Shown here piece by piece: positions 690 through 20,000 of a stretch of DNA of 20,000 nt. Source of the DNA: Chiloscyllium plagiosum (Eukaryota); contig NC_057751.1 of assembly GCF_004010195.1 (NCBI RefSeq), positions 3,243,594-3,263,593 of the forward strand. Reading direction: 5' to 3'. The notes under the pieces are model-generated. The model was not told the DNA's origin, did no database searches, and saw only the letters and a program-made list of their open reading frames with translations. Numbering within the stretch: the first letter of the stretch is position 1; the number at the start of each line of letters is the position of its first letter. A program made the position numbers and the translations under genes.

Positions 690-2525
690 TTCCAGCCATG
701 ACCAAGACATGGCTGAAAGATGGACAGGTCGGCAGCTCAGTGTACCTGCTCGTAGGGTCTTCACGATAGGTTGGGAGCAGGATAGAAGAGGAGTGATCAA
801 GCAGTCGGCTATAGCACTGAGGTAGGATGAAATCTTGGAAGGATCGTCAAATGGGTCAAAGTAAAAATCGCAAAATGGCAAATACTCTGGTGAGTGTGTA
901 CTATAGGCCCCAACACAGTCAGAGAAAGGTAGAAGAATCAAATTGCATAAAAGTATATGTCTAACAAGGCTGCAGTGGTAGTACAGGATTTTAACTGTCC
1001 AAGTATTAACAAGGACATTTGTATGCAAGGTAGGACCATGGGGCTAATTGGTATGTGTCAATCCACAGTACAAAAGGACATCACAGAAATAGACATCAGC
1101 ATGCAGGACTGTGAAATACTGGAAAAATTAACATAGTGGGAGAGAGGAGGTTTGGAAGGGTTTAGCAGCGTCAACACAGGAGAAATCTGCAAACCCCGAC
1201 GAGATGTACGTCAGGCTGTTGAGAGAGGGACTATCAGGGACCCTGATAATAATTTCCACATCCTCCTTCTGACCACAGGTAAGGCCCCAGATGACTGCAG
1301 AACTGCTCGTGTTGTTCCATGATTAAAATAGAGAAGAAGGGATACAGCAGGGAAATACAGGCCGGTCAGTGGGGGAGAGGTTACCTGATTTGACTTCTGA
1401 GGGACAGAATAAATCGACACTTGGAGGGACACAGATTCATCAGGAACGATCAGCGTGGATTTGCGAAGGGAAGGTTGAATTTGACAAAAGTGAACAGTTT
1501 TTGCGGATGTAACCAGGACTGGTGATGAGCTGGGTGATTTTGGTATAGTCGTGATGGACTTCAGCAAGGTTTGAGATAAGGTCCCACATGCCAAACTGGT
1601 CAAGAAATGAAAAGCCCCTGGGATCCAAGGCACAGTGACATGCTGCATCCAAGATTGGCTGAGAGGCAGGAAGCAAAAGGTGATGGTAGACGCATGTTTC
1701 TGTGACTAGAAGACCGTTTCCAGTGGGATTCCACTGGGGACAATGTTGGGCTCTTGCTGTTTGTAATTTGCATCACTGACTGGGACTTAAACAAAAGGAA
1801 AATGATCAAGAAATGGAGTGGTGACCAGCAGGAGTGGTAAACAGAGAGGAGATGGCTGGGAATTGCAGAAGGATATCAACGGACTGGTCACCTGGGCAGA
1901 CAGCAGTGACAAATGGTATTGAACATGGAAAAATGTGAGGTCATTCAACTAGGAATGGCTGACAAGGCAAGGGTAGGACCCTACTGTGAATGTTAGGGCC
2001 CTGGAATGTACTAATGATCAGATGGAGCTGAAGGTAGCAGGACAGGTAGGTAAGGTCATACATAAGGCATGTGTGAATTCTGCATTTGATAGCTGAGACA
2101 TAGAATATTAGAGCAGAGAGGTGATACTGGAATTGTACAAAATGGTGGTTTGGCCTCACCAGGAGATGTGCGCAGTTTGAATCACCATATTACTGGAAGA
2201 AAAAAGAATTGGAAGAAAGTGAATGCAGAGGAAATTTACCAGGACGTTGCCTGAGCTGGAGTGTGAACTCTGCTGAGGTTGTTTTCCATGGGGTCATGGA
2301 GGTTCAGAGGGGATGTTAAAGAGATGGTATATAAGGTTAGGAGGGGCACAGATAAGCAGGAGAGAAAGGCGCTGTTCCCATGAGTGACCAGAGAGTATGG
2401 ATTGTGAAGGTAGGGGATTAAGAGGAGAGCTGAGATAGTGTTTCCACCAGACAGTGGTGGGGACTCTCAAATGTATTGCCTAAAAGCTTGGCTCAGTCTG
2501 AAACTCTGTCATTTGGATAATTTTA
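690..2525 (+). mobile_element. Degenerate CR1-type LINE (ORF2 remnant: APE endonuclease through RT to 3' region, internally deleted)
   Basis: Hand translation of + strand: TKTWL (701-715, cf. TETWL), VYYRPQ (896-913, cf. VYRPP), GKYRPVS (1350-1370), MDFSKV*DKVPH (1554-1589, cf. DFSKAFDKVPH). Many stops/frameshifts; ends approximate. Confidence 0.85.
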
Positions 2526-2814
2526 AATATTTATTTGTGTTGACCAGTGAGTACTTCCTGTTTTGTTGTCCATGTTGAAGGGTCTCCCAAATTTCCCTTG
2601 CTCGCACCCATAACTTGGCAGTGTGCCCCCGAGCTCTGGGCTGTAGTTTTGTTGAGCTCTTGCAGTACCAGTCTGTAATGAAACTGTCTGCACCCTTTCC
2701 AGAGCACCATCTGACTGTGAGGTCAATAGGTGAACTCGAGCTTGGTTATCTCTGGAGTCTGACAATTCACGGATCATCTCAGGAGTCAATCGACTTGAGA
2801 AAGAGGGAATGTTT

Positions 2815-2957
2815 AGGAGAAAGTGAGGACTGCAGATGCTGGAGATCAGAGTCGAGAGTGTGGTGCTGGAAAAGCGCAGCAGGTCAGGCAGCATCCGAGG
2901 AGCAGGAGAACCGACGTTTTGGGCATAAGCCCTTCATCAGGAAGGGCTTATTCCTGA
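2815..2957. mobile_element. Short Penelope-derived (pseudo-LTR-like) element with decayed hammerhead motif, copy A
   Basis: Similar to 10477-10697 and 14399-14583 (AGGAGAAAGTGAGGACTGCAGATGCTGGAGATCAGAG...). Flanked by the 15-bp direct repeat AAAGAGGGAATGTTT (2800-2814, 2958-2972). Minus strand reads CTGATGA-A-GGGC-TTAT-GCCC-AAAAC-GTC. Confidence 0.75.
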
Positions 2958-3280
2958 AAAGAGGGAATGTTTCCCTGGCTTGGGGGGAACCCAGAAGAAA
3001 GGAATACCAAATTAAAACTCAAGCCAGGCCTTTGGGGGGAAGGGTGTGAAAGCATTTCCTCACCCCATGGGCAGTGGGAAGATACAAATCTCATCCACCC
3101 CACCCTCAAAATAAAACACTTGCGGGCCAATTGAAGATTTCAACACTGAGATTGCTCACTTCTTGTTCAGTAAAATTATGGATATAAAAGCCAAGGTAGG
3201 TGGATGAAATAATAACAGAATTTGGATAACACTCTCCATACACCATGAAACGGGCATGATGGGCTGAATGGCCTGCTTTG
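2958..3280 (+). mobile_element. CR1 LINE 3' fragments (interrupted by copy A)
   Basis: GGAATGTTTCCCTGG...AAAATTAAAACTCAAGCCAGGCC...CATTTCCTCAC and terminal GGGCTGAATGGCCT resemble elasmobranch CR1 3' ends; recognised by eye. Confidence 0.5.
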
Positions 3281-3489
3281 TCACTGGCTGTTCCAGAAAT
3301 GAACCTTTTCTCTGGCATCTGGGCTTCAGTAACGGAGGTGATTTCAATGATTGGAATATTGACATTGCTCTGTGTGTATACGTTGTGGATGAAGGATGAA
3401 AGTGTAACCTTCATTTGCCACTTAAAGATCAGCTGTAGTATTGGCCAGGCTTCTCTAATGCCAATCAGATCTTGGTTTCCACTTGTTAA

Positions 3490-3570
3490 AGCAGTCCCGA
3501 AGAAAGATTATACCTGAAACGGTGACTTCTGCACCTCCTGATGCTGCCTGGCTTGCTGTGGTCTTCCTGA
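3490..3570 (+). mobile_element. Penelope pseudo-LTR fragment with degenerate hammerhead
   Basis: AGTC-CCGAAGA-aagattatacct-GAAAC-GGT-GACT (3493-3527; AGTC/GACT = stem I), followed by CCTGATGCTGCCTGGCTTGCTG resembling the other Penelope-derived copies. Confidence 0.55.
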
Positions 3571-3829
3571 CTGTATCGGCGCTACCTCGTGCTCCCACGA
3601 GGAGGTTGAACAGTTTATCCACTACACCAACTCTTCCAGCCTGTTCACCTTGGATTCCAGCATATGCAGTTTTGTCTGAAAAGATGGATGCTGATGACGG
3701 GCAGGGAGACTGGGCAAGGAATTGAGGCCAGTTATGTTTCATGAAAATGGAGAATATTCATACTTCATTCCCTGGCCATCCAAGTTGGTCATCACTTGCT
3801 GCTGACCTGCTATTAGGAATTGTTGATCT

Positions 3830-3835
3830 TTTATT
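3830..3835 (-). promoter_or_regulatory. Candidate polyadenylation signal AATAAA for the LZTS transcript
   Basis: TTTATT on + strand about 390 nt downstream of the stop codon. Another candidate lies at 2530-2535. No transcript data. Confidence 0.3.
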
Positions 3836-4227
3836 CTGAAAGGCTGTGCTGTTTTGGTTAGCCTTTTCCCTCTTCACCAGCCTTTCAGTGACCCCACCGT
3901 TGTCGTGTCACCTTCAGAGAATGTGTTGTGCAGAAGCAGCTAACCAGGAATGGTGAGCGACTGTCGAATTGAGTGTTGAGAGCTCGCTGTAAACAGGTGA
4001 AGGCAGTTTAGCAGCAACCTCAGTCAGTGGTCTCCCACCTTCACAATGACACGTGTCTGTAAACATTGAGAGAGTGCATTGTCAGGCAGTCATTCTGAAG
4101 TCAGCTCAACTGAAGTCAAGTCATATGGCTTCACAGTGTGGAAATTTCTGACCGTGAGCTGGATGAACCTCTGATCCACTCAGACAGTGGTCAAACCTGA
4201 GCCAAGCAGCAAGTTTTCTTACACTTG

Positions 4228-4926
4228 TTACAGGGCAGTGGCGACAATCTCTTGGTAGTGAATGTCAGTGCTCTGCTTTTCACTGCCCCTAAGATTGCTC
4301 ACCTTCAGCTCAGTGGAAAGCTGTTGGATGACTGTCTGCAGGCTCTGGTTCTGATGCAGCACCTCAGTGTAACTCTGCTGGAGCTGTTTCTGATACTCTA
4401 TCACTTGTTGCTTCTCCAGTTGCCACACGAGGCGCTCCTGGCGAAAGTTGCAGGAGAGCTCCCAGTTGGATTTCTTCTCCTGCTCCAGCTGGGCCTGTAA
4501 GCTTGCCAGCTCCTCTCGCAGAGCCACAGAGTCTTGCTCAGGCTTGCGTCGGGCCGGCTCCCTGCAGCCGCCGTGGCAGGCAGTGGGATCAGCCTGTGTC
4601 GCGTGGATGTCCAGCTCTTTGCAGCCAGCCAGCTTGTGCTTCAGCTGCAGGATCTGGCCGTCCTGCAGGCCCACCTTTTCCCTCAGCAGGTCAGCTGCGT
4701 TCTTCATACGCTGCCTCTCGTTTTCACACACCTCCAGCTCTCTGTCCCTGGCTTGCAGGCGGTTCTGCAGCTCCTCTACTGCCTGCTCTTGAGCAGATAG
4801 CTTTCCTTTGGCTTCTCTCAGCTGGCTCTTCAATGACAAGAGCTCACTGCTCTTCTGCATCAACTCAGCTTGCGAGTCTTTCAGCTGCTGTTTCAGCAGT
4901 GAGATCTCCCCTGACTTCTGGCAAAC
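4228..4926 (-). CDS. LZTS1: LZTS1-like, last coding exon (Fez1 coiled-coil/leucine zipper, C-terminal PDZ-binding motif)
   Basis: Acceptor ttgctgtttcAG|GTT at 4927/4926. VCQKSGEISLLKQQLKDSQ, ELEVCENE, FRQERLVWQLEKQQVIEYQKQLQQSY and DIHYQEIVATAL* match recalled LZTS1 motifs (VCQKSGEISLLKQQLKESQ...DIPYEDIIATEI). TAA at 4230-4228; 699 nt, phase 0. Confidence 0.92.
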   Translation of the reverse strand, partial: VCQKSGEISLLKQQLKDSQAELMQKSSELLSLKSQLREAKGKLSAQEQAVEELQNRLQARDRELEVCENERQRMKNAADLLREKVGLQDGQILQLKHKLAGCKELDIHATQADPTACHGGCREPARRKPEQDSVALREELASLQAQLEQEKKSNWELSCNFRQERLVWQLEKQQVIEYQKQLQQSYTEVLHQNQSLQTVIQQLSTELKVSNLRGSEKQSTDIHYQEIVATAL

Positions 4927-5924
4927 CTGAAACAGCAATGTTGCAGAAGCTGCTGTCAGTGCAGTGCATTATTCACATGGAACACCAACAAAACCTCCAT
5001 TTATTCTGTCTCTTGAAGGCAGTATACGATCCCTACCGCCTGACGGAAGGAAACGCCATGATAGACAAGAACATGGTCAAAAGGCTCGTATCAAAATCAA
5101 TATCTTCAAGCAGGAGAGGGCGGGGACTTTGGAGGAAACAGTGAAAATAGCACACTCCTGGGTGGAAATGGAGAAGTCTTTGGAGCCCTCCCACCAAATG
5201 GAAGCTAGGTACAAGTGCTAAGAAAGATTGGCTCTGCCTGCTGACAATATCACAGCAACAAACTCAAATCCAGATAATGCATTTCACAGCAATAGGAAAC
5301 ATATCACTGTGGTTCCTCCAACTCCAAATCTCCCATTCTTCTCACAAGCAACTCAAACCATTTTGTTATAAAGCAGCTTTACATTTAATATTGCTTGAAG
5401 GATTTTAATACCCCTTTCCCCAACTCCTGCAAACTTAGTTCAAGTTCTGTGAAAATGCCTGGACTGGTTTTTTAAAAATGCTTTAACAAGATTTCCTTGC
5501 AATCACATAATGAGGGATGACTGCTTCCTTGTCTGGTGAGGAGAATGTTTCATTTGGTTTAGATACTGTTTAATTGGTCATCGGAAAAATATTCCTTTAT
5601 GATGTGACCTGTGGAGTCAGTGGGCTGAGAGAAACAGTGAATTGCTCGATCCTCCATCTGAACAAAACAAACTCTCATGTCACTGCCTTGTTTTTCTGAA
5701 CAATGAGCAGCTTGGAGAGGTTTTTATTGAGTTGGAGGCAAGCCTCCTAAGAATGAGCTTCCCAGCTGATCTCTCCAAGTTCAGAAGAGAAAATCCTCTC
5801 CATCAATTCAGGGTGAAAGCACTTGATTCTTTTCATAGACCATCTCAAGATTTTATTTCCGAGCAACTGTGCCTGCAAGACTTGAGAGACAATTGGTGAC
5901 TTCACAATACGATGATGATGTCTA

Positions 5925-6070
5925 AAAGATGTTTGGATAAGTACTGGATAGGAAATGTTTGGAGGGATATGGGCCAGGAGCAGGCAGGTGAGACGAGGTG
6001 AGTTTGGGATTATGGTCAGCATGGACAGGTAGGACCGAAGGGTCTGTTTCTGTGCTGTTAGACTGTGTGC
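5925..6070 (+). mobile_element. CR1 LINE 3' tail
   Basis: TTTGGATAAGTAC...GGAGGGATATGGGCC...GGTCAGCATGGAC...GAAGGGTCTGTTTCTGTGCTGT; reverse-complement similarity to 14905-15060. Confidence 0.75.
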
Positions 6071-6959
6071 CAAGACTGTACATCAAGAGGAACAGATTAC
6101 AGTGCATCCTACACTTCAACCTTTTGCCTTTAAGAATAATTCAATGTTTTATTTCAGGCCAACACCAGCAGATAAATCTGTTTATTGTTTCTCTTTGCTG
6201 AAGAAGTTGTGTGTGTCTGTCTGTCTGTTTTGGGGATATTTATAGAGATGAGAATTAATACCATCACATGACTGACTGACTGTGTACATTAACTAACTTT
6301 TACATCTTTGTCGGAGAAGTTTTGTGTTGACATCAGAGACTCGGTAATAGATCTTGTTATTTCAAACCTGGTTTCATTGAGGTTTTAATTGGTCATCTTG
6401 GTAACAGGAAAAACATTTTTATTTTACACTGTGACCTATGGAGTTGTGGGACCAGAGAGACTGTGTACATCTCAAACCTCAGTCTAAAAAAGCACACTCA
6501 CAAGTGACTGTGTCAAAAACTAAACTGGGTGAGTTTGAACTGTCAATATTCAGTCCTGCTTGAAACACAAGAGAGACAGTAAAACACTTAAATAGTCTCA
6601 AGTGCAGATATATGTAAGAGTGTCAAGTGTGTGGACAGTGTTTTAGCCATTTATAGAGCCGTGTTTTACCTTACAGTGATGTGAAAGAGCTTGCCACTAA
6701 ATTCCAATGATGCTTTCCAGTTTGTTTATTCTGCTGAAGGTTTTCAAGAGAATTCTTGAGTTTGAAATGTACTCAACACACATGGTCCCTGTCTCTCAGA
6801 AGATTGGGACAACAATGAATGTCCTCAGAATTGTTGTGGCTTTCCCTCTCCGGTCAGTCTGAGAGTCTGTTACAGTCGCTGTAATATTGTAGCCTTCCCA
6901 GCGTTGGGAATACTGGTGTACCTTTTGATCAAGAGTGGGAGGGTGATTGAGAAACAAAG

Positions 6960-7470
6960 TAGGCTTGTTACAAACTGTACAGAGCCACAGCTGGAGTACT
7001 GTGTGCAAGTATGGTCTCCTTCATTAAGGAAGCCCACATTGCCAGTTCAATTGGCTTTTTCCTAAAAGGAAGCCATTATTTTCTTGAGGGAAGGATTAAC
7101 CAGGTTGGGCTGATACTCCTTGGACTGAGAGGTGATCTCATTGAAACTTGACAGGGTGGATACCAAGAGGATGTTTCCCCTTTGGGGAGAGTTTAAATTA
7201 AGGAGCACCGTTTAAAGACGGGGATGAGGAGGATTTGTTTTCTCTCAGAGGATTATGGGTCTTTTCCCCAGAGACAGCTGGAAGTTGGGTCATTGAATAT
7301 ATTCAAGGCTGAGTTTGAGACATTTTCAGTTGAAAGGAGTCCAGGGTTGTTGGGAGCAGACAGGAAAATGGACTTGAGATAAGAATGAGATTAGCTGTCA
7401 ATGTATTGGATAGCAGAGTGGGCTTGAGGGGCTGAATGGCTGACTCCTTCTCCAATTCACTAGTATTATG
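6960..7470 (+). mobile_element. CR1 LINE 3' fragment abutting the exon-2 splice donor
   Basis: CAGCTGGAGTACTGTGTGCAAGTATGGTCTCCT (LEYCVQVWSP), GAGAGGTGATCTCATTGAAAC (RGDLIE), terminal GGGCTGAATGGCTGACTCCT. Confidence 0.75.
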
Positions 7471-7476
7471 ACCTAC

Positions 7477-8187
7477 CTCCCATTTTGTTTCTTCCAGTTT
7501 TGGAGCAAGTTCAGTTTGTTCCCTTTGGTAGGCTTTGCATTTGGCGTTGAGGCTGTCATGCTCCCGCAGGAGTTGTGTGAAGTCTTCCTGAAGTTTGGCC
7601 TTGTCTTGCTGGAGTTGGCTGAGCTGGAGCAGGACCAGCTGGTGTTGGTTCCTTGGTGCCTTTGTTTTGGTGTCGCCTGACTGCGTCAGGCTGGTTACCT
7701 CCTGTTTGTCCTGGTCCAGTCTGAGGACAGCAGTTGCCTTCACATCCTGAGCTTCCCATCCAGCTTCTTTCTGGGGCTGGGGAAGGTTTGTGCTGTGGCT
7801 GGCCCGCCACTCCCTGCTCTCAGGGGTAGATGTGCTACAGCTTCCAGTGTTCAAGATGCTGTCCAGAGACCCCGCTCCCTGACTGATGTGATGCGCTGAG
7901 CCTCCAAACCTGCTGAGAAGGTTTGCTGTACTAACTGGCTCTGTGCTTGGAGTGGGCAGGCTAGACATGGAATTTCGACCCGAGTCTGACAGGGTACCAG
8001 AATGGTTTGTGTGTTTCTGCTTGTGAGCGTCATGCACCTCTGAATGCTTCGTTACCTTCGATAGATTGCCCTGAAATTCTCCCTTTTGATTTGCCAGCTT
8101 TCCTGAGATACAGTTCACATCGGCGTTGCCATTCCTGGGTGCCATCACCTTTAGCACTGTTGGCCTCACAATGTTCTTTCCTGTACT
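7477..8187 (-). CDS. LZTS1: LZTS1-like, second coding exon
   Basis: Acceptor tctctttcggtAG|AGT (exon starts 8187, STGKNIVRPT). Motifs SGTLSDSGRNSMSSLPT, SRFGGSAHHISQG, LQLSQLQQDK, LEETKWE. Donor GAG|GTAGGT at 7477/7476; 711 nt, phase 0 at both ends. Confidence 0.92.
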
Positions 8188-8529
8188 CTACCGAAAGAGA
8201 AGAAGACATAGTTAATCTCTCTTGTCTTGTATTGATGATAGGTTTCATCCACTTAACGGCCACTTTCTGCCCACTCCCTGACCAGCCCACACTCAGAGGA
8301 TTTACGCATAGGAAAATGGGCTGACACTGAAATGAGTTGTGGAGAGAATGGGGCAGTACAGGAGATTTCCCGCAGAAATTCCAGTGAAAGGTTACAAGTG
8401 GCCATTCATCCCATTTCCCTGGAGTTTCTACAGGTTGGTGAGGGTCAGGAACTCCTGTGCTTTTGGATGCAGTAACCTTGAAAACAAACCAAGTCTCTTC
8501 CAACAGCTCCTTCCAATCTCATGGCCACA

Positions 8530-8790
8530 GCCACTGAGTAAGACAATGGCAGCACTACCTGCAACTTCCTTTCCAAGCACATACCATCCTGACTTGGAAA
8601 CATATCACTGTTCCTTCAATGTCGCTGGGACAAAGCCCTGGAATTCCCTCCCTCAGGTCATTGTGGGTGTCCCTACATCACAAGGACTGCTGCGGTTCAA
8701 GAAGGCAGCTGATTACCCTCTTCACCAGGACAACTCGAGATAGATAATAAATACTGGCCCAGCCAGCAGCACCTACATCCCAAAAGCAGT
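8530..8790 (+). mobile_element. LINE (CR1/L2 clade) 3' end fragment
   Basis: CCATCCTGACTTGGAAACATATCACTGTTCCTTCA...GGTTCAAGAAGGCAGCT...AATAAATACTGGCC; reverse-complement similarity to 9360-9560. Confidence 0.65.
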
Positions 8791-8854
8791 GTGGGCCAGG
8801 GATCCCACACAATGCTCTCAGACTGTGATGCACAGGTCCTGTTTCCTGAGCAAC

Positions 8855-8935
8855 AAAGGTTCTGATGAAGGGTTACCAGACTCAAAACATCAACTCTGTG
8901 TTCTTCCCACAAATGGTGCTGAGTTTCTCATCAAT
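8855..8935 (+). mobile_element. Penelope pseudo-LTR fragment (second subfamily) with CpG-decayed hammerhead
   Basis: GGTT-CTGATGA-A-GGGTT-acca-GACTC-AAAAC-ATC-AACT (8858-8895); stems I and II can still pair. Confidence 0.55.
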
Positions 8936-9354
8936 AGCAGCTCATTGATATGGGATCTTACTGAGTGAAAACTGACCATCCTTTTTTCGGAAAATCACCA
9001 GTGCCTTCCAAAATTAATTTCTTCAGTTTGACAGCCGAATGACCATGTTGTGCCCAGTAACACTCTGAGTTCCTACCTGAAATCTAACAGCAATTTCAAT
9101 AAATCTTGCTGGCTTGTCCTGAACACCAGACCGTGTGAGAACAGTACGTCCCATCCTTCAGGTGGAAGGGAATGGGCAGCTAACATGAACCATACCCTTG
9201 TTTCACATCTCCCAGGAAGAAGCCATGTCTGGTCAGCTCTACAGATGTGCATTGGATCTGGACCAATGCAATCTTTTGATCTCAGTGGATGCATGAGAGC
9301 AAAGGGACAAAGGTTCAAGCCAGTAAATATAAATCCTAATGTTTTTGATAGATC

Positions 9355-9905
9355 CCTACAGGATGTCGGTGTTACTGGCTGTTGAACATTCACTGACTTT
9401 GAGAAGGTGGTGAGCTACCTTGGTGAGCATTGCAACGTAGGCCCACAACGATGTTAGGAATGGAGCTGCTGGGTTTGGACTCAGCAACACTGAAGGAACA
9501 GCGATATGTTTCCAAGTCAGGATATTGATAAGTTTGTAGGAGCGCATGCAGTTAGTGTTCCCCATTAACTCCTGCCCTTGTCTCCTGAATGACCAGGTTT
9601 GTGAGCTTGAAGATAGTATTGGGGGGGGAACCATGATGAGTTGCAGCATTGCATCTTGTAGATGGTACGTCCTGCTGCTACTGTATGTCCGTGGTGGAGG
9701 GATTGCATGTTGAAGGTGGTGGATGGGTTGTCAATCAAGTGGGCTGCTTTGTCCAGGATGGTGTCAGGTTTCTTGAGTTGTCAGAAATGCACCCATCCAG
9801 GCAACTGTGGAGTGTCCCATCACATTCCTGAGTTTTGCCTTGTAGATGGTGAACAGGATTTAGGGAGTTGGGAGGTGTGCTGCAGGATTCCTGGTCTGTG
9901 ACCTA
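9355..9905 (-). mobile_element. LINE (CR1/L2 clade) 3' fragment, inverted relative to 8530-8790
   Basis: CTGAAGGAACAGCGATATGTTTCCAAGTCAGGAT (about 9490-9523) is a near reverse complement of ATCCTGACTTGGAAACATATCACTGTTCCTTCA (about 8586-8618). Confidence 0.65.
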
Positions 9906-10252
9906 CCTGAAAATATTCTTCATGCAACGAGTGATGCATCATTAAATTCTACTTGAAAGGTGTGGAAGGTTGATAACCTCAAATAGGATGACTGAGAGAA
10001 AGAATTGTAATCTGAGGAGGTAAAGCAGGTTGGGCTGAAAGGCCTGTGGCAATTCTCTGAACTCAACAGAGCAATAAGGAGATAGCAGGATTGTTCTGAT
10101 GAGGTTCATTAACCGTAAGACGTGTTAGCCAAGCACCTGATCAAAGTCCAAAGTGAGCTCATTGATAGGAAAGTCTGCCATTTCCACCTGTTTGCACCAA
10201 ACTACTTCAGGTTATCAAAATGTAGGACCTTGTAGCTTTCTCACACATGTGA

Positions 10253-10540
10253 GCTACTGATCTTTCAGGTGAAGTTGGTATTGGTGTCCTCAGTGTCCCC
10301 TCCTTACAATCTTGTTTGTTGTGAAACTGTTCGAGGAGAAACAGAGGTCTGCAGATGTTGGAGATCAGAGCTGAAAATGTGTTGCTGGAAAAGCGCGCTA
10401 CTGATCTTTCAGGTGAAGTTGGTATTGGTGTCCTCAGTGTCCCCTCCTTACAATCTTGTTTGTTGTGAAACTGTTCGAGGAGAAAGTGAGGTCTGCAGAT
10501 GCTGGAGATCAGAGCTGAAAATGTGTTGCTGGAAAAGCGC
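10253..10540. repeat. 144-bp tandem duplication (2 copies, 3 mismatches)
   Basis: 10253-10396 and 10397-10540 both begin GCTACTGATCTTTCAGG and end GGAAAAGCGC. The unit is flank plus the first 64 bp of element copy B. Confidence 0.95.
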
Positions 10541-10697
10541 AGCAGCTCAGCCAGCATCCAAGGAACAGGAGAATCGATGTTTCGGGCATAAGACATTTCA
10601 GGGATTCCTGAAGAAGGGCTTATGCCCGAAACGTTGATTCTCCTGTTCCTTGGATGCTGCCTGACCTGCTGCGCTTTTCCAGCAACACATTTTCAGC
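10477..10697. mobile_element. Fold-back Penelope-derived element, copy B (80-bp inverted arms, 16-bp TSD)
   Basis: Arms 10513-10592 / 10619-10698 are near-perfect reverse complements. TSD TGTTGTGAAACTGTTC at 10461-10476 and 10698-10713. Confidence 0.85.
10601..10642 (+). ncRNA. Minimal type-I hammerhead ribozyme motif (putative)
   Basis: gggattc-CTGAAGA(10608-14)-A-GGGC-ttat-GCCC-GAAA(10628-31)-C-GTT^-gattctc: conserved CUGANGA and GAAA boxes, stem II, NUH triplet, imperfect stem I, loop-less stem III as in Penelope-associated minimal hammerheads. Confidence 0.65.
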
Positions 10698-10958
10698 TGT
10701 TGTGAAACTGTTCTCTGGCTGTACAGGTGTGTCCTGACATTCAGATCAATCAATCACAACCTTCAACATTGCACCTAAAATTACACTCAACTGGACCCTG
10801 CCATTTCCACTGAAATTCTGTCCCTGTTCCTGAGGAACTTGTACCTGGTGCTGTTGTGATTGACATAGACACTCATTTCATGATCACCTTTCCTGACTGG
10901 GATCTCCCAGGGCACTTTGCAAGCCCGGTCACTGTCCTGGGTGAGACAGGGCACTCAC

Positions 10959-11417
10959 CTTGTCAAGTTGGCCAGAGAATGGTACCAGTGTGGGTGGTGG
11001 CTCTTGCACATCCATGCTGACCGGTCCACCTTTCTGAGGCTTGACTTGGACAGTGCACTTCTTCAGCTTGCCTGTGTTGGTCAGCCCATTGGTTTTGCTG
11101 ATACTGATGTAGAAGAAGTCCTCTGTTTTCTCGCACTCAGAGTTTGCTTTGGAGCCTTTGTTGCTTGCTTGGTGGCTGGTGTCAAACCTCAGCAGGCCAT
11201 CTTGTTGCCTGAGGAGCTTGTGGAGGTGGGTAGCCTTGATGTTCCCATACTCCAAGGCTTTGCACTGTTTCCCTTGGAGATTCTGGCCTGAAATGAGGCT
11301 GCTCACACTCCCCATGTTGCTTTCGGCAGGCCAGCTAGGAAACACTGAGGCAAGCTGCGAGTTATTCACCTGAGACGGAAGCTTGATTTGGACGTGTATG
11401 GCATCTCCAGTTGCCAT
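10959..11417 (-). CDS. LZTS1: LZTS1-like, first coding exon (start at 11417 or at MGSVSS ATG 11315)
   Basis: MGSVSSLISG, RQQDGLLRF, KTEDFFYI and PPTLVPFSGQLDK match the recalled LZTS1 N-terminus (MGSVSSLISG...DGLLRF...KSEDFFYI...PPKLMPFSNQLE). Donor AAG|GTGAGT at 10959/10958; upstream acceptor tcttgcAG|G at 11457/11456. Confidence 0.9.
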
Positions 11418-11429
11418 AGCAAGTCCAAT

Positions 11430-11447
11430 TCAACAATTTAACTCCAT
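11430..11447 (-). promoter_or_regulatory. Upstream ORF MELNC* in 5' UTR
   Basis: ACC-ATG-G context; ATG GAG TTA AAT TGT TGA, in frame with and ending 12 nt before ATG 11417; lies inside the predicted exon (starts 11456). Confidence 0.6.
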
Positions 11448-11874
11448 GGTGTTGACCTGCAAGACAAGATTGGAAAGAGAAGGAGAATCTAATTAATTAA
11501 TTGTCAGCAATGAACCAATCAAGAAAGTCTTTTTGTTAATATTGTGCCTCTCACAACTACAGGATGTCCCAGTATGTTTCCCATCTCGGGGAATTCTTTT
11601 TGAACATTATAATCAGATTGCTGGCAACCGATCTAATGCACAGAAACCTCCCAGCAACAACAATGTGGTCATGTGATCACCTTTTCTTGTGCTCTTGTTT
11701 AGGGGATAGAAATTGGTCAAGGTGTTGGGGAAACCCATCCGCTTTTGTCTGGACTGGAAATTGTGGGATCTTCTCTGGCCACTTAAGGGTGACAGACCAT
11801 GAATCGTTTTAATTATGGCACTTGTGACAGCACAGCACCCTCTCGAGTGTCGACCTAGAATTCTGAGCCAAAAA

Positions 11875-12790
11875 CCACAGCACATCTATTCGATGGCCTG
11901 GTCTCCACAGCCCTTGTATCAATGAGTTCCATAGATTCACCACCCTCTGGCTGAAAAGGTTTCCCCTCAAGTCACTTCTAAAGGGTTGTCCCTTCACTCT
12001 GAGGCTGTGCCCTTGAGTCCTCATCTCTCTGACCAGTGGAAACATCTTCTCCACGTCCACACGATCAACAGGCCCCTCAATATTCTCCAAGTTTCAATCA
12101 GCGTCCCCCTCAACCTCCTAAACTCCATGGAATGTAGACCCAGAGTCCTCAACTGCCCGTCATATGACATACCTTTCATTCCCAGGATTGTGCTTGTAAA
12201 CCTCCAATAGACCCCCTCCAAGACAGCACATCCTTCCTTCGATATGGAGCTCAAAAGTATTCCAGACCCTTATGCAACCTTAACAACACACTTTTGCATT
12301 CTCAACCACTTGAAATGAATGCTAACATTGCATGTGCTTTCCTAACTGCTAACAGAACCTGCATGTTCACCCTGAAGAGAATCCTGAAACAGGACTCCCA
12401 AGAACAGTACTTGAGATTTCCCCATTTAGAAAATAATCTCTCCCTCTATTCTTCTGACCAAACGTGCAAACCTCTGACTTTCCCACATTATATTCCCTGC
12501 ACCACTTTTTTGGCCCTCACCTAACCTGTCCAAGACCTTCTGCAGCCTCCCCATTTCCTCAACAGCATCTATCCTTCCACCTATCTTTGTGTCATCTGCA
12601 AACTAAGCAGCAGTGCTCTCGATTCCTTCGCCCACATAATGAATGTATAACGTAATCATTGTAGTCCCAACAGTGAACTCTGTGCAACTCCATGGTCTGC
12701 GATCCTGAGAAAGACCTCCTTTTATCCCCACTCTCTGCCTTCTGCCAGTCAGCCAATCCTCTCTCTGTACCAGTACGCTGCCCCTCACAC
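11875..12790 (-). mobile_element. CR1 LINE ORF2 C-terminal remnant
   Basis: ORF-track peptides LEGVYWRFTSTILGMKGMSYDGQLRTLGLHSMEFRRLRGTLIETWRILRG and DRVDVEKMFPLV...GHSLRVKGQPFRSDLRGNLFSQRVVNLWNSL are typical CR1 ORF2 C-terminal motifs; frameshifted. Confidence 0.9.
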
Positions 12791-13829
12791 CATCTTATGA
12801 AGTAGCGATTTAAAGCAGGGAGTGGGAATTGATCCAAAGAAACATGAATGTAAGATGGACTGAGATTTCATGCAGGCTTTCTGACGTGCAGAAGGCCTGA
12901 CTACACACAGCACCAGGACACCTCCAGAGACAATCTGCAGGACTGGAATGGGAAATGAGAGCACTCACTGCTGCTTCACAGGATCAAATTGATTAAAGTG
13001 ACATCGAAGCAATTTGAAAAAAAAATCATTCATATCTCAAGGGATAAGATTCCTGAATCACTCCCACTCTCAGATACAGACCTTGATGAAGATGATTAAT
13101 TAAATGGCCAAATTACAATTTCATGTCGTAAATATTGCTGGCAGAATTGAATGTACAATAATCTATCCCTATAATTGTCTCACAGGGCTATGAGTGTTTA
13201 CTCTCCAGGATTCGCTGGGGTGTAGTGGTTGCAAATGTCTTATTTATGTTTGTGGATGGCATTTTGGGAATCTTATTTGCCCTGTCTTAACCAGCCACTT
13301 CCTAGGTGAAGAATGTATACTTTAATCATCTGTTTGAAAATGTTCTCACAGACAATTCACATCACACAGAGTGCTCACAGTTCAAGCTGATAATTATTGG
13401 GGTGGGTAGGAGTAAAAATAATTGCAGTAAGACTGTCTGTAATCAGCAGCACAAGATGTGTGTTGGAGCTCTGCAGATATTGTCAGTTTAATGTGATATG
13501 GGCTTGGCAAATCTGTTTGGGGGCATTCCTGGAGAAATCATCTCACATACGCACACCTCACTGGTCTATTCTCCGAATGGGCACTTGAGAAAGGAACAGT
13601 CTTCTACTGACTTCATCAGTTGACCTTGAAGCAAGTAATTTCTCTGTCACTGATATCACTCAATGGAAGTGTTCAGAGGAAATGAAAGGTTTTTTTTTTA
13701 AAGACCAGATCTTCCCTGTGTTTTTTCTGCAGCGAGTATGATTAACTCCTCATTCCTGGGAACTGCTCTCACTACCTGGGAACTTACTGTAGAAGAATTG
13801 TGTGGACCTGTCTGAGTCGGAAAGAGACA

Positions 13830-14690
13830 GGAGATGCTGGAGAAACAGAGTGAATGTTGCCAGTCTGATATAACATCTTTACAACTGCAGAGGACTGGGA
13901 AAAGACAGGTTTCACTCGACAGAAAAGGAGGAAGGAGGAGCTGGGATAGATGGCCCAGAGTGAAAAACAAACACAAAGGCAGGATTCAAGATAATAAGGA
14001 AGAGATATAGCTGAAGAGTAGGTGTTAATGGCAAGGGTTACCAGCAACAAGTAGGTCAGCGCGACCGAGAACAATGCTGTACAATGAGACACAGGTTCTT
14101 GGAGGTGAAGAGTATCTTCAAAGTGGAGGACAGTGTTCATGGTCTGAAGCTGCTGGAGTCGGTGCTGAGTCTGGAAGGCTGCAAATTGCTGGAACAGTAA
14201 ATGAGAGGCATTTTCTCCAGCTTGCAGTGGGCTTTGCTGGAGAATAGAGGCATACCTCAGACAGAAATGCTGGCACAACCAGAGGATATGTATTCAAATG
14301 ACCAGTGACGAGAAACTCGCTCATTCCTGCAGAACAGAGGAGAGGTGTTCCGCAAAGGGGTCGCCTAGTCTGTGTTTGGTCTTGTCAGTGTACAGGAGCT
14401 GAAAATGTGTTGCTGGAAAAGCGCAGCAGGTCAGGCAGCATCCAAGGAGCAGGAGAATCGATGTTTAGGGCATGAGCCCTTCTTCAGATTCTCCCGCTCC
14501 TTGGATGCTGCCTGACCTACTGCGCTTTTCCAGCAACACATTTTCAGCTCTGATCTCCAGCATCTGCAGCCCTCACTTTCTCCTCAGTGTACAGGAGACC
14601 ACATTGTAAGATGGGTAGATACATAGTCTAAGCAGATTACTGCTACCCCTCGAAGGTGTGTCTGGGGCTTCAGACAGTGAGAAGGGAGGA
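13830..14690 (-). mobile_element. Old Penelope-like element remnant (GIY-YIG endonuclease C-half plus 3' region), interrupted by copy C
   Basis: After removing the insert and one TSD, the minus strand from 14606 reads QCGLLYTDKTKHRLGDPFAEHLSSV (cf. PLE CGLLYIGETKRRLGDRFAEH), then EFLVTGHLN and KLEKMPLIYCSSNLQPSRLS (cf. KLEEQHLIFRLGTLQPxGLN). Limits approximate. Confidence 0.75.
14399..14583. mobile_element. Fold-back Penelope-derived element, copy C (64-bp inverted arms, 14-bp TSD)
   Basis: Arms 14396-14459 / 14487-14550. TSD TCAGTGTACAGGAG at 14385-14398 and 14584-14597. Minus-strand CTGAAGA-A-GGGC-TCAT-GCCC-TAAAC-ATC in the spacer. Confidence 0.85.
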
Positions 14691-14904
14691 GGGGGAGGAG
14701 TCAGTGTGTTCAATGGGCAAACGTGAAACATCTCAGGTGACCTGTGACAACAGACCAACATTCATCCCTCCCTACTGTCAAATCATGACCTGATAATGAC
14801 TTCAGTTCTGTGCAGGATATTGCTGTGCAGAGGTTAGCTGCAAATCACTGGACTGATTCCACTTCAGTAATACTGAATTGGCAGTGAAGTGCTTTGTAAG
14901 TATT

Positions 14905-15425
14905 TTAGAGTCACAGAGGTGTACAGCATTGAAACAGACCCTTTGTTCCAACTTGTCCATGCTGACCAGATATCCCAACCCAATCTAGTCCTATTTGCCA
15001 GCACCCGGCCCATATCCCTCCAAACCCTTCCTATTCATATACCCATCCAAATGCCTCTTAAATGTTGCAATTGTACCAGCCTCCACCACTTCCTCTAGCA
15101 GCTCATTCCATATAAGTACCATCCTCTGTGTGAAAAAGTTGCCCCTTAGGTCCCTTTTATATCTTTTCCCCTCTCACCCTAAACCTATGCCGTCTAGTTT
15201 TGGACTCCCCTAACCTGGGGTAAAGGCTATTCACTGCATCCATGCGCCTCATGATTTTATAAACATCTATAAGGTCACCCTGCAGCTGCCCACGCACTGG
15301 TCAAAATAGCCCAAGCCCCTGTAGCTCAAACCCTCCGACCCTGGCAACATCCTTGTAAATCTTTCCTGCATCCTTTCAAGTTTATCAGTGTCTTTCGTGT
15401 GTGCGGGAGACCAGAATTGAACACG
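14905..15425 (-). mobile_element. CR1 LINE 3' end
   Basis: AGAGTCACAGAGGTGTACAGCATTGAAACAGACCC...GGCCCATATCCCTCCAAACC...TTTTATAAACATCTATAAGGTCACCC...CCTGGCAACATCCTTGTAAATCT: reverse complement of a CR1 ORF2 end and tail. Confidence 0.85.
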
Positions 15426-19481: not shown

Positions 19482-20000
19482 CAGTAACTCTGATGACAGT
19501 AATTCTGAACTGGACGGACAGTAACTCTGACTGTACAGGAACTCTGACTGTACAGTAACTTTGAGCTGGACAGTAACTCTGAACTGGACGGTTACTCTGA
19601 ACTGTACAGTAACTCTGACTGTACAGTAACTCTGAGCTGGACAGTAACTCTGAACTGGACAGTAACTCTGAACTGGACAGTAACTCTGAACTGGACAGTA
19701 ACTCTGAGCTGGACGGTAACTCTGAACTGGACAGAACTGGACGGTAACTCTGACTGGACAGTAAATCTGAACTGGACGGTAACTCTGAACTGGACCGTAA
19801 CTCTGAACTGGACAGTAACTCTGAACTGGACGGTTACTCTGAACTGGACGGTAACTTTGAACTGGACGGTAACTCTGAACTGGACGGTAACTCTGAACTG
19901 GACAGTATATCTGAACTGGACGGTAACTCTGAACTGGACCGTAACTCTGAACTGGACAGTAACTCTGAACTGGACGGTAACTCTGAACTGGACGGTAACT
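19482..20000. repeat. 18-bp minisatellite (AACTCTGAACTGGAC[A/G]GT)n, continues beyond window
   Basis: Period 18 read directly (e.g. ACTGGACGGT at 19861 and 19879); some 17-bp and truncated variants near the left edge. Confidence 0.97.

What the first reader, a model, noticed from the sequence alone, without database searches (positions are those of the whole stretch)
2800..14597. Family of short fold-back, hammerhead-bearing non-autonomous retroelements with 14-16 bp TSDs
Seen: three related 143-221 bp inserts (2815-2957, 10477-10697, 14399-14583), each bounded by its own exact direct repeat (15, 16 and 14 bp). All share the long-arm terminus (G)AGGAGAAAGTGAGG. Copies B and C sit in opposite orientations, yet their short inverted arms stop at essentially the same position (...TTTTCAGC[T]), and the hammerhead motif lies at or next to the fold-back centre. 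Known: Penelope-like elements have pseudo-LTRs, often partly inverted, that carry minimal hammerheads. Inference: this is a discrete small element with defined ends, mobilised by target-primed reverse transcription (retrozyme/SINE-like), rather than random Penelope debris. It may already be in repeat libraries without the ribozyme being annotated.
Basis: partly seen in the sequence, partly recalled or inferred. Interest (0 to 1): 0.75.

Follow-up and report, generated by a model that had tools for sequence, protein, structure and literature searches.

The report
Short fold-back Penelope retroelement end insertions
The three small inserts are real retrotransposon insertions, but they are stump copies of the ribozyme-bearing end of a Penelope-like element, laid down in the already described 'inverted copy plus short tail' pattern, so they are a tidy example of a known kind and not a new class of element.

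Summary
The observation mostly holds. The 15, 16 and 14 bp direct repeats are exact. For B the duplication is proven: two sister-species studies show the empty site with one target copy. The long-arm end is fixed to within 1-2 nt in at least 1,800-3,000 contigs per run with unrelated flanks. Corrections: only B and C have a second arm. A is another subfamily with a small snap-back. The three fold-back centres differ, and only 1 of 4 hammerhead-bearing arms keeps an intact core.

The two fixed ends lie 35-37 nt apart. That matches the 30-40 bp 'tail' of Penelope-like elements (PLEs), which has been tied to two reverse-transcription start sites (PMC11167929). Best reading: very short PLE insertions, built head-to-head at each landing. 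They are not a SINE, MITE or retrozyme with a fold-back master. The autonomous partner was not found (no genome held). One open point: 4 of 5 arms begin 0-3 nt before the ribozyme core, suggesting a defined RNA 5' end. This scan reported the same pattern many times elsewhere in this genome.

The parts
2800..2814 (+). Copy A left target-site duplication (15 bp)
2815..2943 (-). Copy A single long arm, 129 nt: hammerhead motif (2913-2943, G12 changed to A at a CpG), body and tail; separate subfamily; probably in or beyond the host gene's 3' UTR
   Evidence: present in the sister species (records 1 and 16)
2941..2957 (+). Copy A centre: two re-copied sense fragments of the ribozyme 5' part, joined through 1-3 nt overlaps (9-bp snap-back hairpin)
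   Evidence: mechanism inferred
2958..2972 (+). Copy A right target-site duplication
10253..10396 (+). First unit of a 144-bp tandem duplication: 80 bp flank including the target, plus a 64-bp tail-end stub of B (10333-10396); 3 differences from the second unit, all in the stub
   Evidence: absent in the sister species, carried by a second individual (record 12)
10461..10476 (+). Copy B left target-site duplication (16 bp)
   Evidence: empty site
10477..10604 (-). Copy B long arm, 128 nt, with 37-nt tail (10477-10513); ribozyme core and helix II damaged
10605..10697 (+). Copy B short arm, 93 nt, no tail; the only intact minimal hammerhead core (10605-10635; predicted cut after 10635, GUU triplet)
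   Evidence: activity not tested
10698..10713 (+). Copy B right target-site duplication
   Evidence: single copy in the sister species (records 6 and 20)
14385..14398 (+). Copy C left target-site duplication (14 bp)
14399..14487 (-). Copy C short arm, 89 nt, no tail; starts at the first core base C3; core damaged (G12, G16.2)
14487..14583 (+). Copy C long arm, 97 nt, with 35-nt tail (14549-14583); starts at the base right after the predicted ribozyme cut site
   Evidence: cut site inferred from the PMC4209133 motif
14584..14597 (+). Copy C right target-site duplication
3494..3680 (+).
3569..3631 (+). 63-bp in-frame piece of a Penelope-type reverse transcriptase (just after the YIDD motif), between TCTTCC repeats, inside copy D

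Best explanation
The inserts are very short insertion products of an endonuclease-bearing Penelope-like element (PLE) family of very high copy number. Steps: (1) the PLE protein nicks both target strands 14-16 nt apart, giving the target duplication [duplication shown; enzyme inferred]. (2) Reverse transcription starts inside the RNA at one of two fixed sites 35-37 nt apart, giving one arm with the tail and one without [two fixed ends shown; cause taken from PAc biochemistry]. (3) Each cDNA runs towards the RNA 5' end and stops at or near the hammerhead, probably because the template RNA begins there, or once because it had been cut [clustering shown for 5 arms; cause inferred]. (4) The two cDNAs, one primed from each strand, are joined head-to-head through short overlaps, so the centre is new in each copy. 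With only one arm (A), the cDNA end snaps back briefly before it joins the target [inferred]. The genomic copies are dead on arrival and their ribozyme cores decay at CpGs.
For: Exact TSDs far beyond the null. Empty site for B in X9 and X13: one contig joins 10316 to 10698 with contiguous record coordinates, lacking 381 bp = 221 + 16 + 144. Loose ends with unrelated flanks (agreement 0.32-0.35) pile at 2814/2815/2816: 595/601/601 contigs in X5, 941/1125/1009 in X9, 889/1053/980 in X13, all lower bounds. Tail of 37 and 35 nt on one arm only, against 30-40 bp and head-to-head inverted copies described for PLEs. PAc nicks and extends both strands, starts at two internal sites that define the tail, and is modelled as a dimer. 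The motif has the minimal-hammerhead traits of PMC4209133: extra base after A9, G10.1-C11.1, palindromic 15.2-16.2, no loop 3. Centres differ in A, B and C. Both arms of B share a T where A and both arms of C have C. Other centre joints with other inserted letters occur in the run contigs (table 5c). A PLE-type RT fragment lies in the window.
Against: No copy of this end was seen joined to an RT/GIY-YIG ORF: no genome was held, and a 40-aa frame across the end found no longer protein (weak test). The RT fragment lies in copy D, a different family. The short-arm end rests on 2 copies and was not among the loose-end rows shown (18 shown, 8615 not shown). Random 5' truncation of a multi-kb element would not put 4 of 5 arms within 0-3 nt of the ribozyme core, so plain 'truncation' is incomplete. 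PAc starts in an AC-rich stem-loop; here an AC-rich run precedes the short end but the folds are unremarkable (z -1.51 to +0.18). The three targets show no common ATT nick motif by eye. PMC3846280 explains junction palindromes by self-priming, not by two-strand priming.
Confidence: 0.72

Rival explanations
1. A dedicated non-autonomous short element: a roughly 130-nt unit (hammerhead to tail) transcribed from its own source loci and mobilised in trans by a PLE protein, with the inverted arm still added at insertion.
For: Arms have both ends defined: 4 of 5 start 0-3 nt before the core and the tail end is fixed. No longer copy lies in the 20 kb window. Non-autonomous PLE derivatives are described (PMC8557442; bioRxiv 10.64898/2026.07.22.740005). 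pLTR sequences suffice in cis (PMC3846280).
Against: PAc needs RNA downstream of the start sites (the first 172 nt of its ORF), which these copies lack by construction, so they could not be re-copied themselves if this family behaves alike. No promoter-like tRNA head. 3 of 4 cores are broken.
Confidence: 0.18
2. Same PLE origin, but the inverted arm is made by self-priming (snap-back) of one nucleic acid strand and not by priming at both target strands.
For: A's centre is a 9-bp snap-back with 1-3 nt overlaps. B's centre is a near-palindrome. Both B arms share one variant. Self-priming was proposed in PMC3846280.
Against: Snap-back alone does not explain why the second arm stops 35-37 nt short of the end in both B and C, at the spacing of the PLE tail. 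C's arms have different 5' ends, and the short arm holds 28 nt that the long arm lacks, so it cannot be a copy of the long arm.
Confidence: 0.2
3. Non-LTR retrozyme monomers: units released by hammerhead cleavage from tandem arrays, circularised and reverse-transcribed.
For: Hammerhead motif, large TSDs (PMC7229834), and C's long arm starts at the predicted cut site.
Against: No head-to-tail units in the window. The motif is the minimal PLE type. 4 of 5 arms include sequence upstream of the cut site. Head-to-tail joints have 25-34 letters a side with unknown letters between, which fits neighbouring copies as well as arrays.
Confidence: 0.04
4. DNA-transposon MITE or a microRNA-like hairpin.
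For: Long hairpins; Rfam miRNA matches, all below gathering score.
Against: The termini are not inverted repeats (6, 13 and 12 of 30 matches). TSD length varies from 14 to 16. Centres vary.
Confidence: 0.01

Closest known systems
Insertion units of endonuclease-positive Penelope-like elements (Penelope/Poseidon, Neptune): pLTR, adjacent inverted 5'-truncated copy, 30-40 bp tail (PMC3846280 passages and Discussion; PMC8557442 passages and section 10)
   Same: Head-to-head inverted copies, tail on one end only (35-37 nt), target duplication, palindromic junctions, hammerhead in the repeat.
   Different: No ORF or direct pLTR pair here: the whole insert is 143-221 bp. TSDs are 14-16 bp against 8-10 bp in the rotifer examples. 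5' ends cluster at the ribozyme.
PAc, Poseidon of Anolis carolinensis (PMC11167929, parts 1-2 of 4 of the text and passages)
   Same: Two fixed ends a tail-length apart, downstream of a hammerhead. Cut site to outer end is 97-99 nt here; in PAc the cut is at +26 and one start site at +111-118 of the ORF.
   Different: No protein ORF was found running from this end. No ATT target motif and no significant stem-loop were seen.
Minimal hammerheads (min-HHR) of metazoan PLEs (PMC4209133, parts 1-2 of 4)
   Same: Core, extra base after A9, G10.1-C11.1, palindromic helix III without loop, short helix I; mostly dispersed single motifs of truncated PLEs; opposite-strand pairs 100-700 bp apart were noted there.
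   Different: Helix II has 4 bp here against 7-8 bp in Schistosoma. No shark family is named in the parts read.
Non-LTR retrozymes of animals (PMC7229834 passages; bioRxiv 10.64898/2026.07.22.740005 parts 1-3 of 5)
   Same: Small, non-coding, type I hammerhead, related to PLE pLTRs, present in one chondrichthyan sampled.
   Different: Retrozymes are defined by head-to-tail tandem units, each with a complete ribozyme. These inserts are single or head-to-head and mostly have broken cores.

Membership tests
EN+ Penelope-like element insertion | Minimal hammerhead motif in the terminal repeat | tested here: met
   Motif in 4 arms, intact in 1; traits as in PMC4209133. Rfam has no match. Cleavage not tested.
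EN+ Penelope-like element insertion | Inverted 5'-truncated copy adjacent head-to-head | tested here: met
   2 of 3 inserts (B, C); A has only a 9-bp snap-back.
EN+ Penelope-like element insertion | 30-40 bp tail at one end only | tested here: met
   37 nt in B, 35 nt in C; outer end fixed in thousands of contigs. The inner end rests on 2 copies.
EN+ Penelope-like element insertion | Target-site duplication created on insertion | tested here: met
   3 of 3 exact; empty site for B in 2 of 2 sister-species runs.
EN+ Penelope-like element insertion | This end sequence flanks an ORF with telomerase-like RT and GIY-YIG endonuclease in a full-length copy | not testable with these tools
   No genome held. 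Protein search of the open frame across the end gave 0 hits (weak). Pattern scans of viral, metagenome and prokaryote collections gave no true relative. The RT fragment in the window lies in another family's copy.
Non-LTR retrozyme | Two or more head-to-tail units, each with a complete hammerhead | tested here: not met
   None of the 3 inserts. Arrays elsewhere in the genome could not be checked.
Non-LTR retrozyme | Expressed as linear and circular unit-length RNA | tested here: inconclusive
   The one RNA run laid (X22, 6 in 100 of it read) put no read on the stretch, which the tool marks as no test.
SINE | tRNA/5S/7SL-derived head with pol III promoter and simple-repeat 3' tail | tested here: not met
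   0 tRNA genes; no such Rfam family among 16 matches; arms end in ...TTTCTCC(TC) with no A-rich or simple-repeat tail.
MITE (DNA transposon) | Terminal inverted repeats and constant short TSD | tested here: not met
   6, 13 and 12 of 30 terminal matches; TSD 15, 16 and 14 bp.

The most novel reading that the evidence does not exclude
These stumps are run-off copies of the 5' leader of the PLE RNA, not truncated 3' ends. Because reverse transcription starts inside the RNA, the protein can start at the first tail, about 130 nt from the RNA's 5' end. The minimal hammerhead, whose palindromic helix III can only form between two RNA molecules, would then act mainly as an RNA dimerisation signal. 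It would hold two leaders head-to-head for a dimeric protein that primes one on each target strand, one at each start site. That would explain in one step the fixed ends, the one-sided tail, the centre at the ribozyme and the mixture of cut (C long arm) and uncut arms, and would give PLE minimal hammerheads a role that does not need efficient cleavage. No such proposal turned up in the listings or the passages read; subscription papers were not searchable.
Probability: 0.13. Interest if true: 0.7.

Novelty: new member of a known kind. Interest (0 to 1): 0.3.

Why it matters
As a class it is known. Its value is as a natural dataset: a family with thousands of short, TSD-bounded, partly species-specific insertions lets one test in vivo whether the PLE tail comes from two reverse-transcription start sites used on opposite strands, and whether the hammerhead marks the RNA 5' end, is cut, or pairs two RNAs. 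These are open points of the PLE cycle. Presence/absence sites such as B are also clean phylogenetic markers.

Tried and rejected
Whole-genome tabulation: no genome held. Rfam: 16 matches at E<=5, all below gathering score, 14 of them miRNA models, mostly on the B and C hairpins; rejected as fold-back look-alikes. ARAGORN: 0 genes. A 22-nt tail motif found 0 matches in viral and 0 in metagenome contigs. A 19-nt body motif found 48 metagenome, 0 viral and 38 prokaryote-genome loci. Across all 86 the longest alignment to the element was 46 columns and the top scores came from 23-41 nt matches around the seed, so I took them as chance. The 40-aa open frame across A's arm found no longer protein (3 candidates, 0 scored; weak test). 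The 21-aa RT piece had no PDB match. Of 4 phmmer hits to the 45-aa frame, 2 (P0002, P0003) are repetitive proteins and were dropped as spurious. Folding of six arm segments gave no significant structure. No RNA holder was listed and the RNA run laid gave no test. Head-to-tail joints (2943 to 2814/2816) were not taken as evidence of tandem arrays, because similar joints link an unrelated repeat (6058) to the same end. Summed contig depths were not used as copy numbers. Sequence look-up in earlier findings returned nothing.
Full report
SETTING. The window holds a Fez1/LZTS-family gene on the minus strand (ORF 4228-4968, Pfam Fez1 E 2e-50; further coding stretches near 7303-8187 and 10929-11312, assigned to the gene by position and by a recalled LZTS N-terminus, with no Pfam match for the last). 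By position A lies about 1.3 kb beyond the stop codon, B in an intron and C upstream of the first coding stretch (inferred). No whole genome was held.

OBSERVATION. All three direct repeats are exact and abut the inserts: 15, 16 and 14 bp. In 1500 random pairs of windows with the same spacing, the longest exact repeat was 12 nt. Laying public contigs on 2500-15000 gave direct proof for B. In two runs of a sister species from two studies (X9, X13; flanks about 3.5-4% different), one contig of 1836-1837 nt maps to 9745-10316 and then 10698-11964 with contiguous record coordinates. The 381 missing bases equal the 221-bp insert, one 16-bp target copy and the 144-bp tandem duplication. So B inserted after the split, or is unsorted there, and the duplication arose with or after it. 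A second individual of the source species (X5) has a contig over 9837-10373 with one other letter, so the duplicated junction is not an assembly error. A is present in the sister species (contigs start at 2919/2922 inside the insert and cross its right junction). C probably is too: one contig runs 22 nt into it, below the tool's 31-letter rule.

ANATOMY. Read in the ribozyme's sense, the unit is about 130 nt: minimal hammerhead, body, an AC-rich run ending ...TTTTCAGC, and a last 35-37 nt. B is a 128-nt long arm and a 93-nt short arm head-to-head. C is an 89-nt short arm and a 97-nt long arm. A is one 129-nt arm followed by two small re-copied pieces of the ribozyme's 5' part. The short arms of B and C stop at the same place once 1 and 3 nt of overlap with the target are allowed. 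Across the genome the long end is fixed: contigs whose flanks are unrelated (agreement 0.32-0.35) leave the alignment at 2814, 2815 or 2816 in 595/601/601 (X5), 941/1125/1009 (X9) and 889/1053/980 (X13) cases; these are lower bounds because the tool stopped counting. The short end was not among the 18 loose-end rows shown (8615 hidden), so it rests on two copies.

At the 5' side, 4 of 5 arms start 0-3 nt before the first core base (A long, B long, B short, C short). The fifth (C long) starts at the base after the predicted cut. The three centres are all different, and run contigs show further centre joints with other inserted letters (table 5c). A differs from B's short arm at 11 of 93 columns, clustered just before the tail; B and C short arms differ at 5 of 89. 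Only B's short arm keeps an intact core (1 of 4 hammerhead-bearing arms). The G12 and G16.2 losses in A, C and B long fall on CpG sites, as expected for neutral decay.

THE RIBOZYME. The motif is CUGA(A/U)GA, one extra A, a 4-bp helix II closed by G-C, GAAA, then CG-U-H with no loop 3. These are the traits listed for the minimal hammerheads of metazoan PLEs, which did not cleave as monomers and cleaved weakly as dimers (PMC4209133, parts 1-2 of 4 read). Rfam has no model that matched. Cleavage was not tested.

WHAT IT IS. PLE insertions are described as 5'-truncated, often with an inverted truncated copy adjacent at the 5' end and a 30-40 bp tail at one end only (PMC8557442, passages and section 10; PMC8969392, passages). 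Rotifer examples have a 31-bp tail, inverted pLTRs, 8-10 bp TSDs and palindromic head-to-head junctions (PMC3846280, passages and Discussion). The purified anole element PAc nicks and extends both target strands and starts reverse transcription at two internal sites whose interval is the tail. It is modelled as a dimer and does not need ribozyme cleavage in vitro (PMC11167929, parts 1-2 of 4 and passages). B and C fit this in detail: two outward-pointing 3' ends, one with and one without a 35-37 nt tail, joined at variable centres.

MECHANISM. Most likely (0.72 for the PLE reading as a whole): staggered nicks 14-16 nt apart; priming on each strand, one at each start site; both cDNAs run to the ribozyme region; head-to-head joining through short overlaps. 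Shown: TSDs, empty site, the fixed long end, the shared short end in 2 copies, variable centres. Inferred: the enzyme, two-strand priming and the cause of the 5' stops. C argues against simple snap-back, since its short arm holds 28 nt that its long arm lacks. A argues that brief snap-back does occur. The clustering of 5' ends is the one feature that plain truncation does not explain. The PLE transcription start lies in the pLTR in Penelope and Chlamys-3, so an RNA that begins at the ribozyme and is copied from its first tail would give just this unit. Earlier notes of this scan reached the RNA-start idea from larger samples; I could check it only on these 5 arms.

AGAINST AND OPEN. The autonomous partner was not identified. 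Pattern scans found no true relative in viral, metagenome or prokaryote collections, and the open frame across the end matched no longer protein. A 63-bp piece at 3569-3631 does encode PLE-type reverse transcriptase. Two of 4 phmmer hits align there (P0004 75%, E 2.4e-4; P0005 64%, E 3.1e-4) and show YIDD just upstream. P0004 has a sub-threshold RVT_1 match, and the nearest atlas clusters of P0005 carry RT and GIY-YIG at 0.87-0.89, a lead only. But this piece sits in copy D, an older family, so it shows PLE coding sequence in the genome and not the partner. A non-autonomous short source RNA (0.18) and snap-back synthesis of the second arm (0.2) remain; these overlap with the main reading and are not exclusive. 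Retrozymes are defined by head-to-tail units with complete ribozymes (PMC7229834, passages; bioRxiv 10.64898/2026.07.22.740005, parts 1-3 of 5); that test is not met here. SINE and MITE tests are not met. Expression was not tested.

NOVELTY. No paper on this shark family appeared in searches, and none on two-strand priming in PLEs in searches. Subscription papers, Dfam and Repbase were out of reach, so this is weak. The kind is known, and this scan has reported it many times on other pieces of the same genome. Verdict: new member of a known kind, interest 0.3. The boldest reading not excluded is that the minimal hammerhead pairs two leader RNAs for a dimeric protein (probability 0.13, interest 0.7 if true).

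Noticed in passing
window 3494-3680 and 3569-3631: An older PLE-end copy of another family is interrupted by a 63-bp in-frame piece of Penelope-type reverse transcriptase, in the same sense, between TCTTCC repeats (3562-3567, 3632-3637). Other copies of that family in run contigs skip this part (joint 3567 to 3647). Possibly a template switch or break-repair patch.
   Followed up: partly
window 10253-10540: A 144-bp tandem duplication spans B's left junction. All 3 differences between the units lie in the 64-bp element stub. It is absent in the sister species and carried by a second individual. It could be a later duplication, or an aborted first cDNA plus re-copied flank in the same insertion event.
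   Followed up: partly
window 14487: C's long arm begins at the base right after the predicted hammerhead cut site; one case of 5 arms, with 1 nt of ambiguity, so suggestive only of a self-cleaved template.
   Followed up: partly
window 4228-11312 (minus strand): Fez1/LZTS-family gene; copy A lies about 1.3 kb past the stop codon with its hammerhead arm in the gene's sense, but its core is broken (G12 to A).
   Followed up: partly
window 5932-6058 and 14923-15051; 8586-8667 and 9442-9523: Two other pairs of inverted dispersed repeats (about 79% alike), high-copy in the laid contigs and unrelated to the hammerhead unit; not identified.
   Followed up: no
window 19482-20000: An 18-bp-period minisatellite runs off the end of the window.
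   Followed up: no
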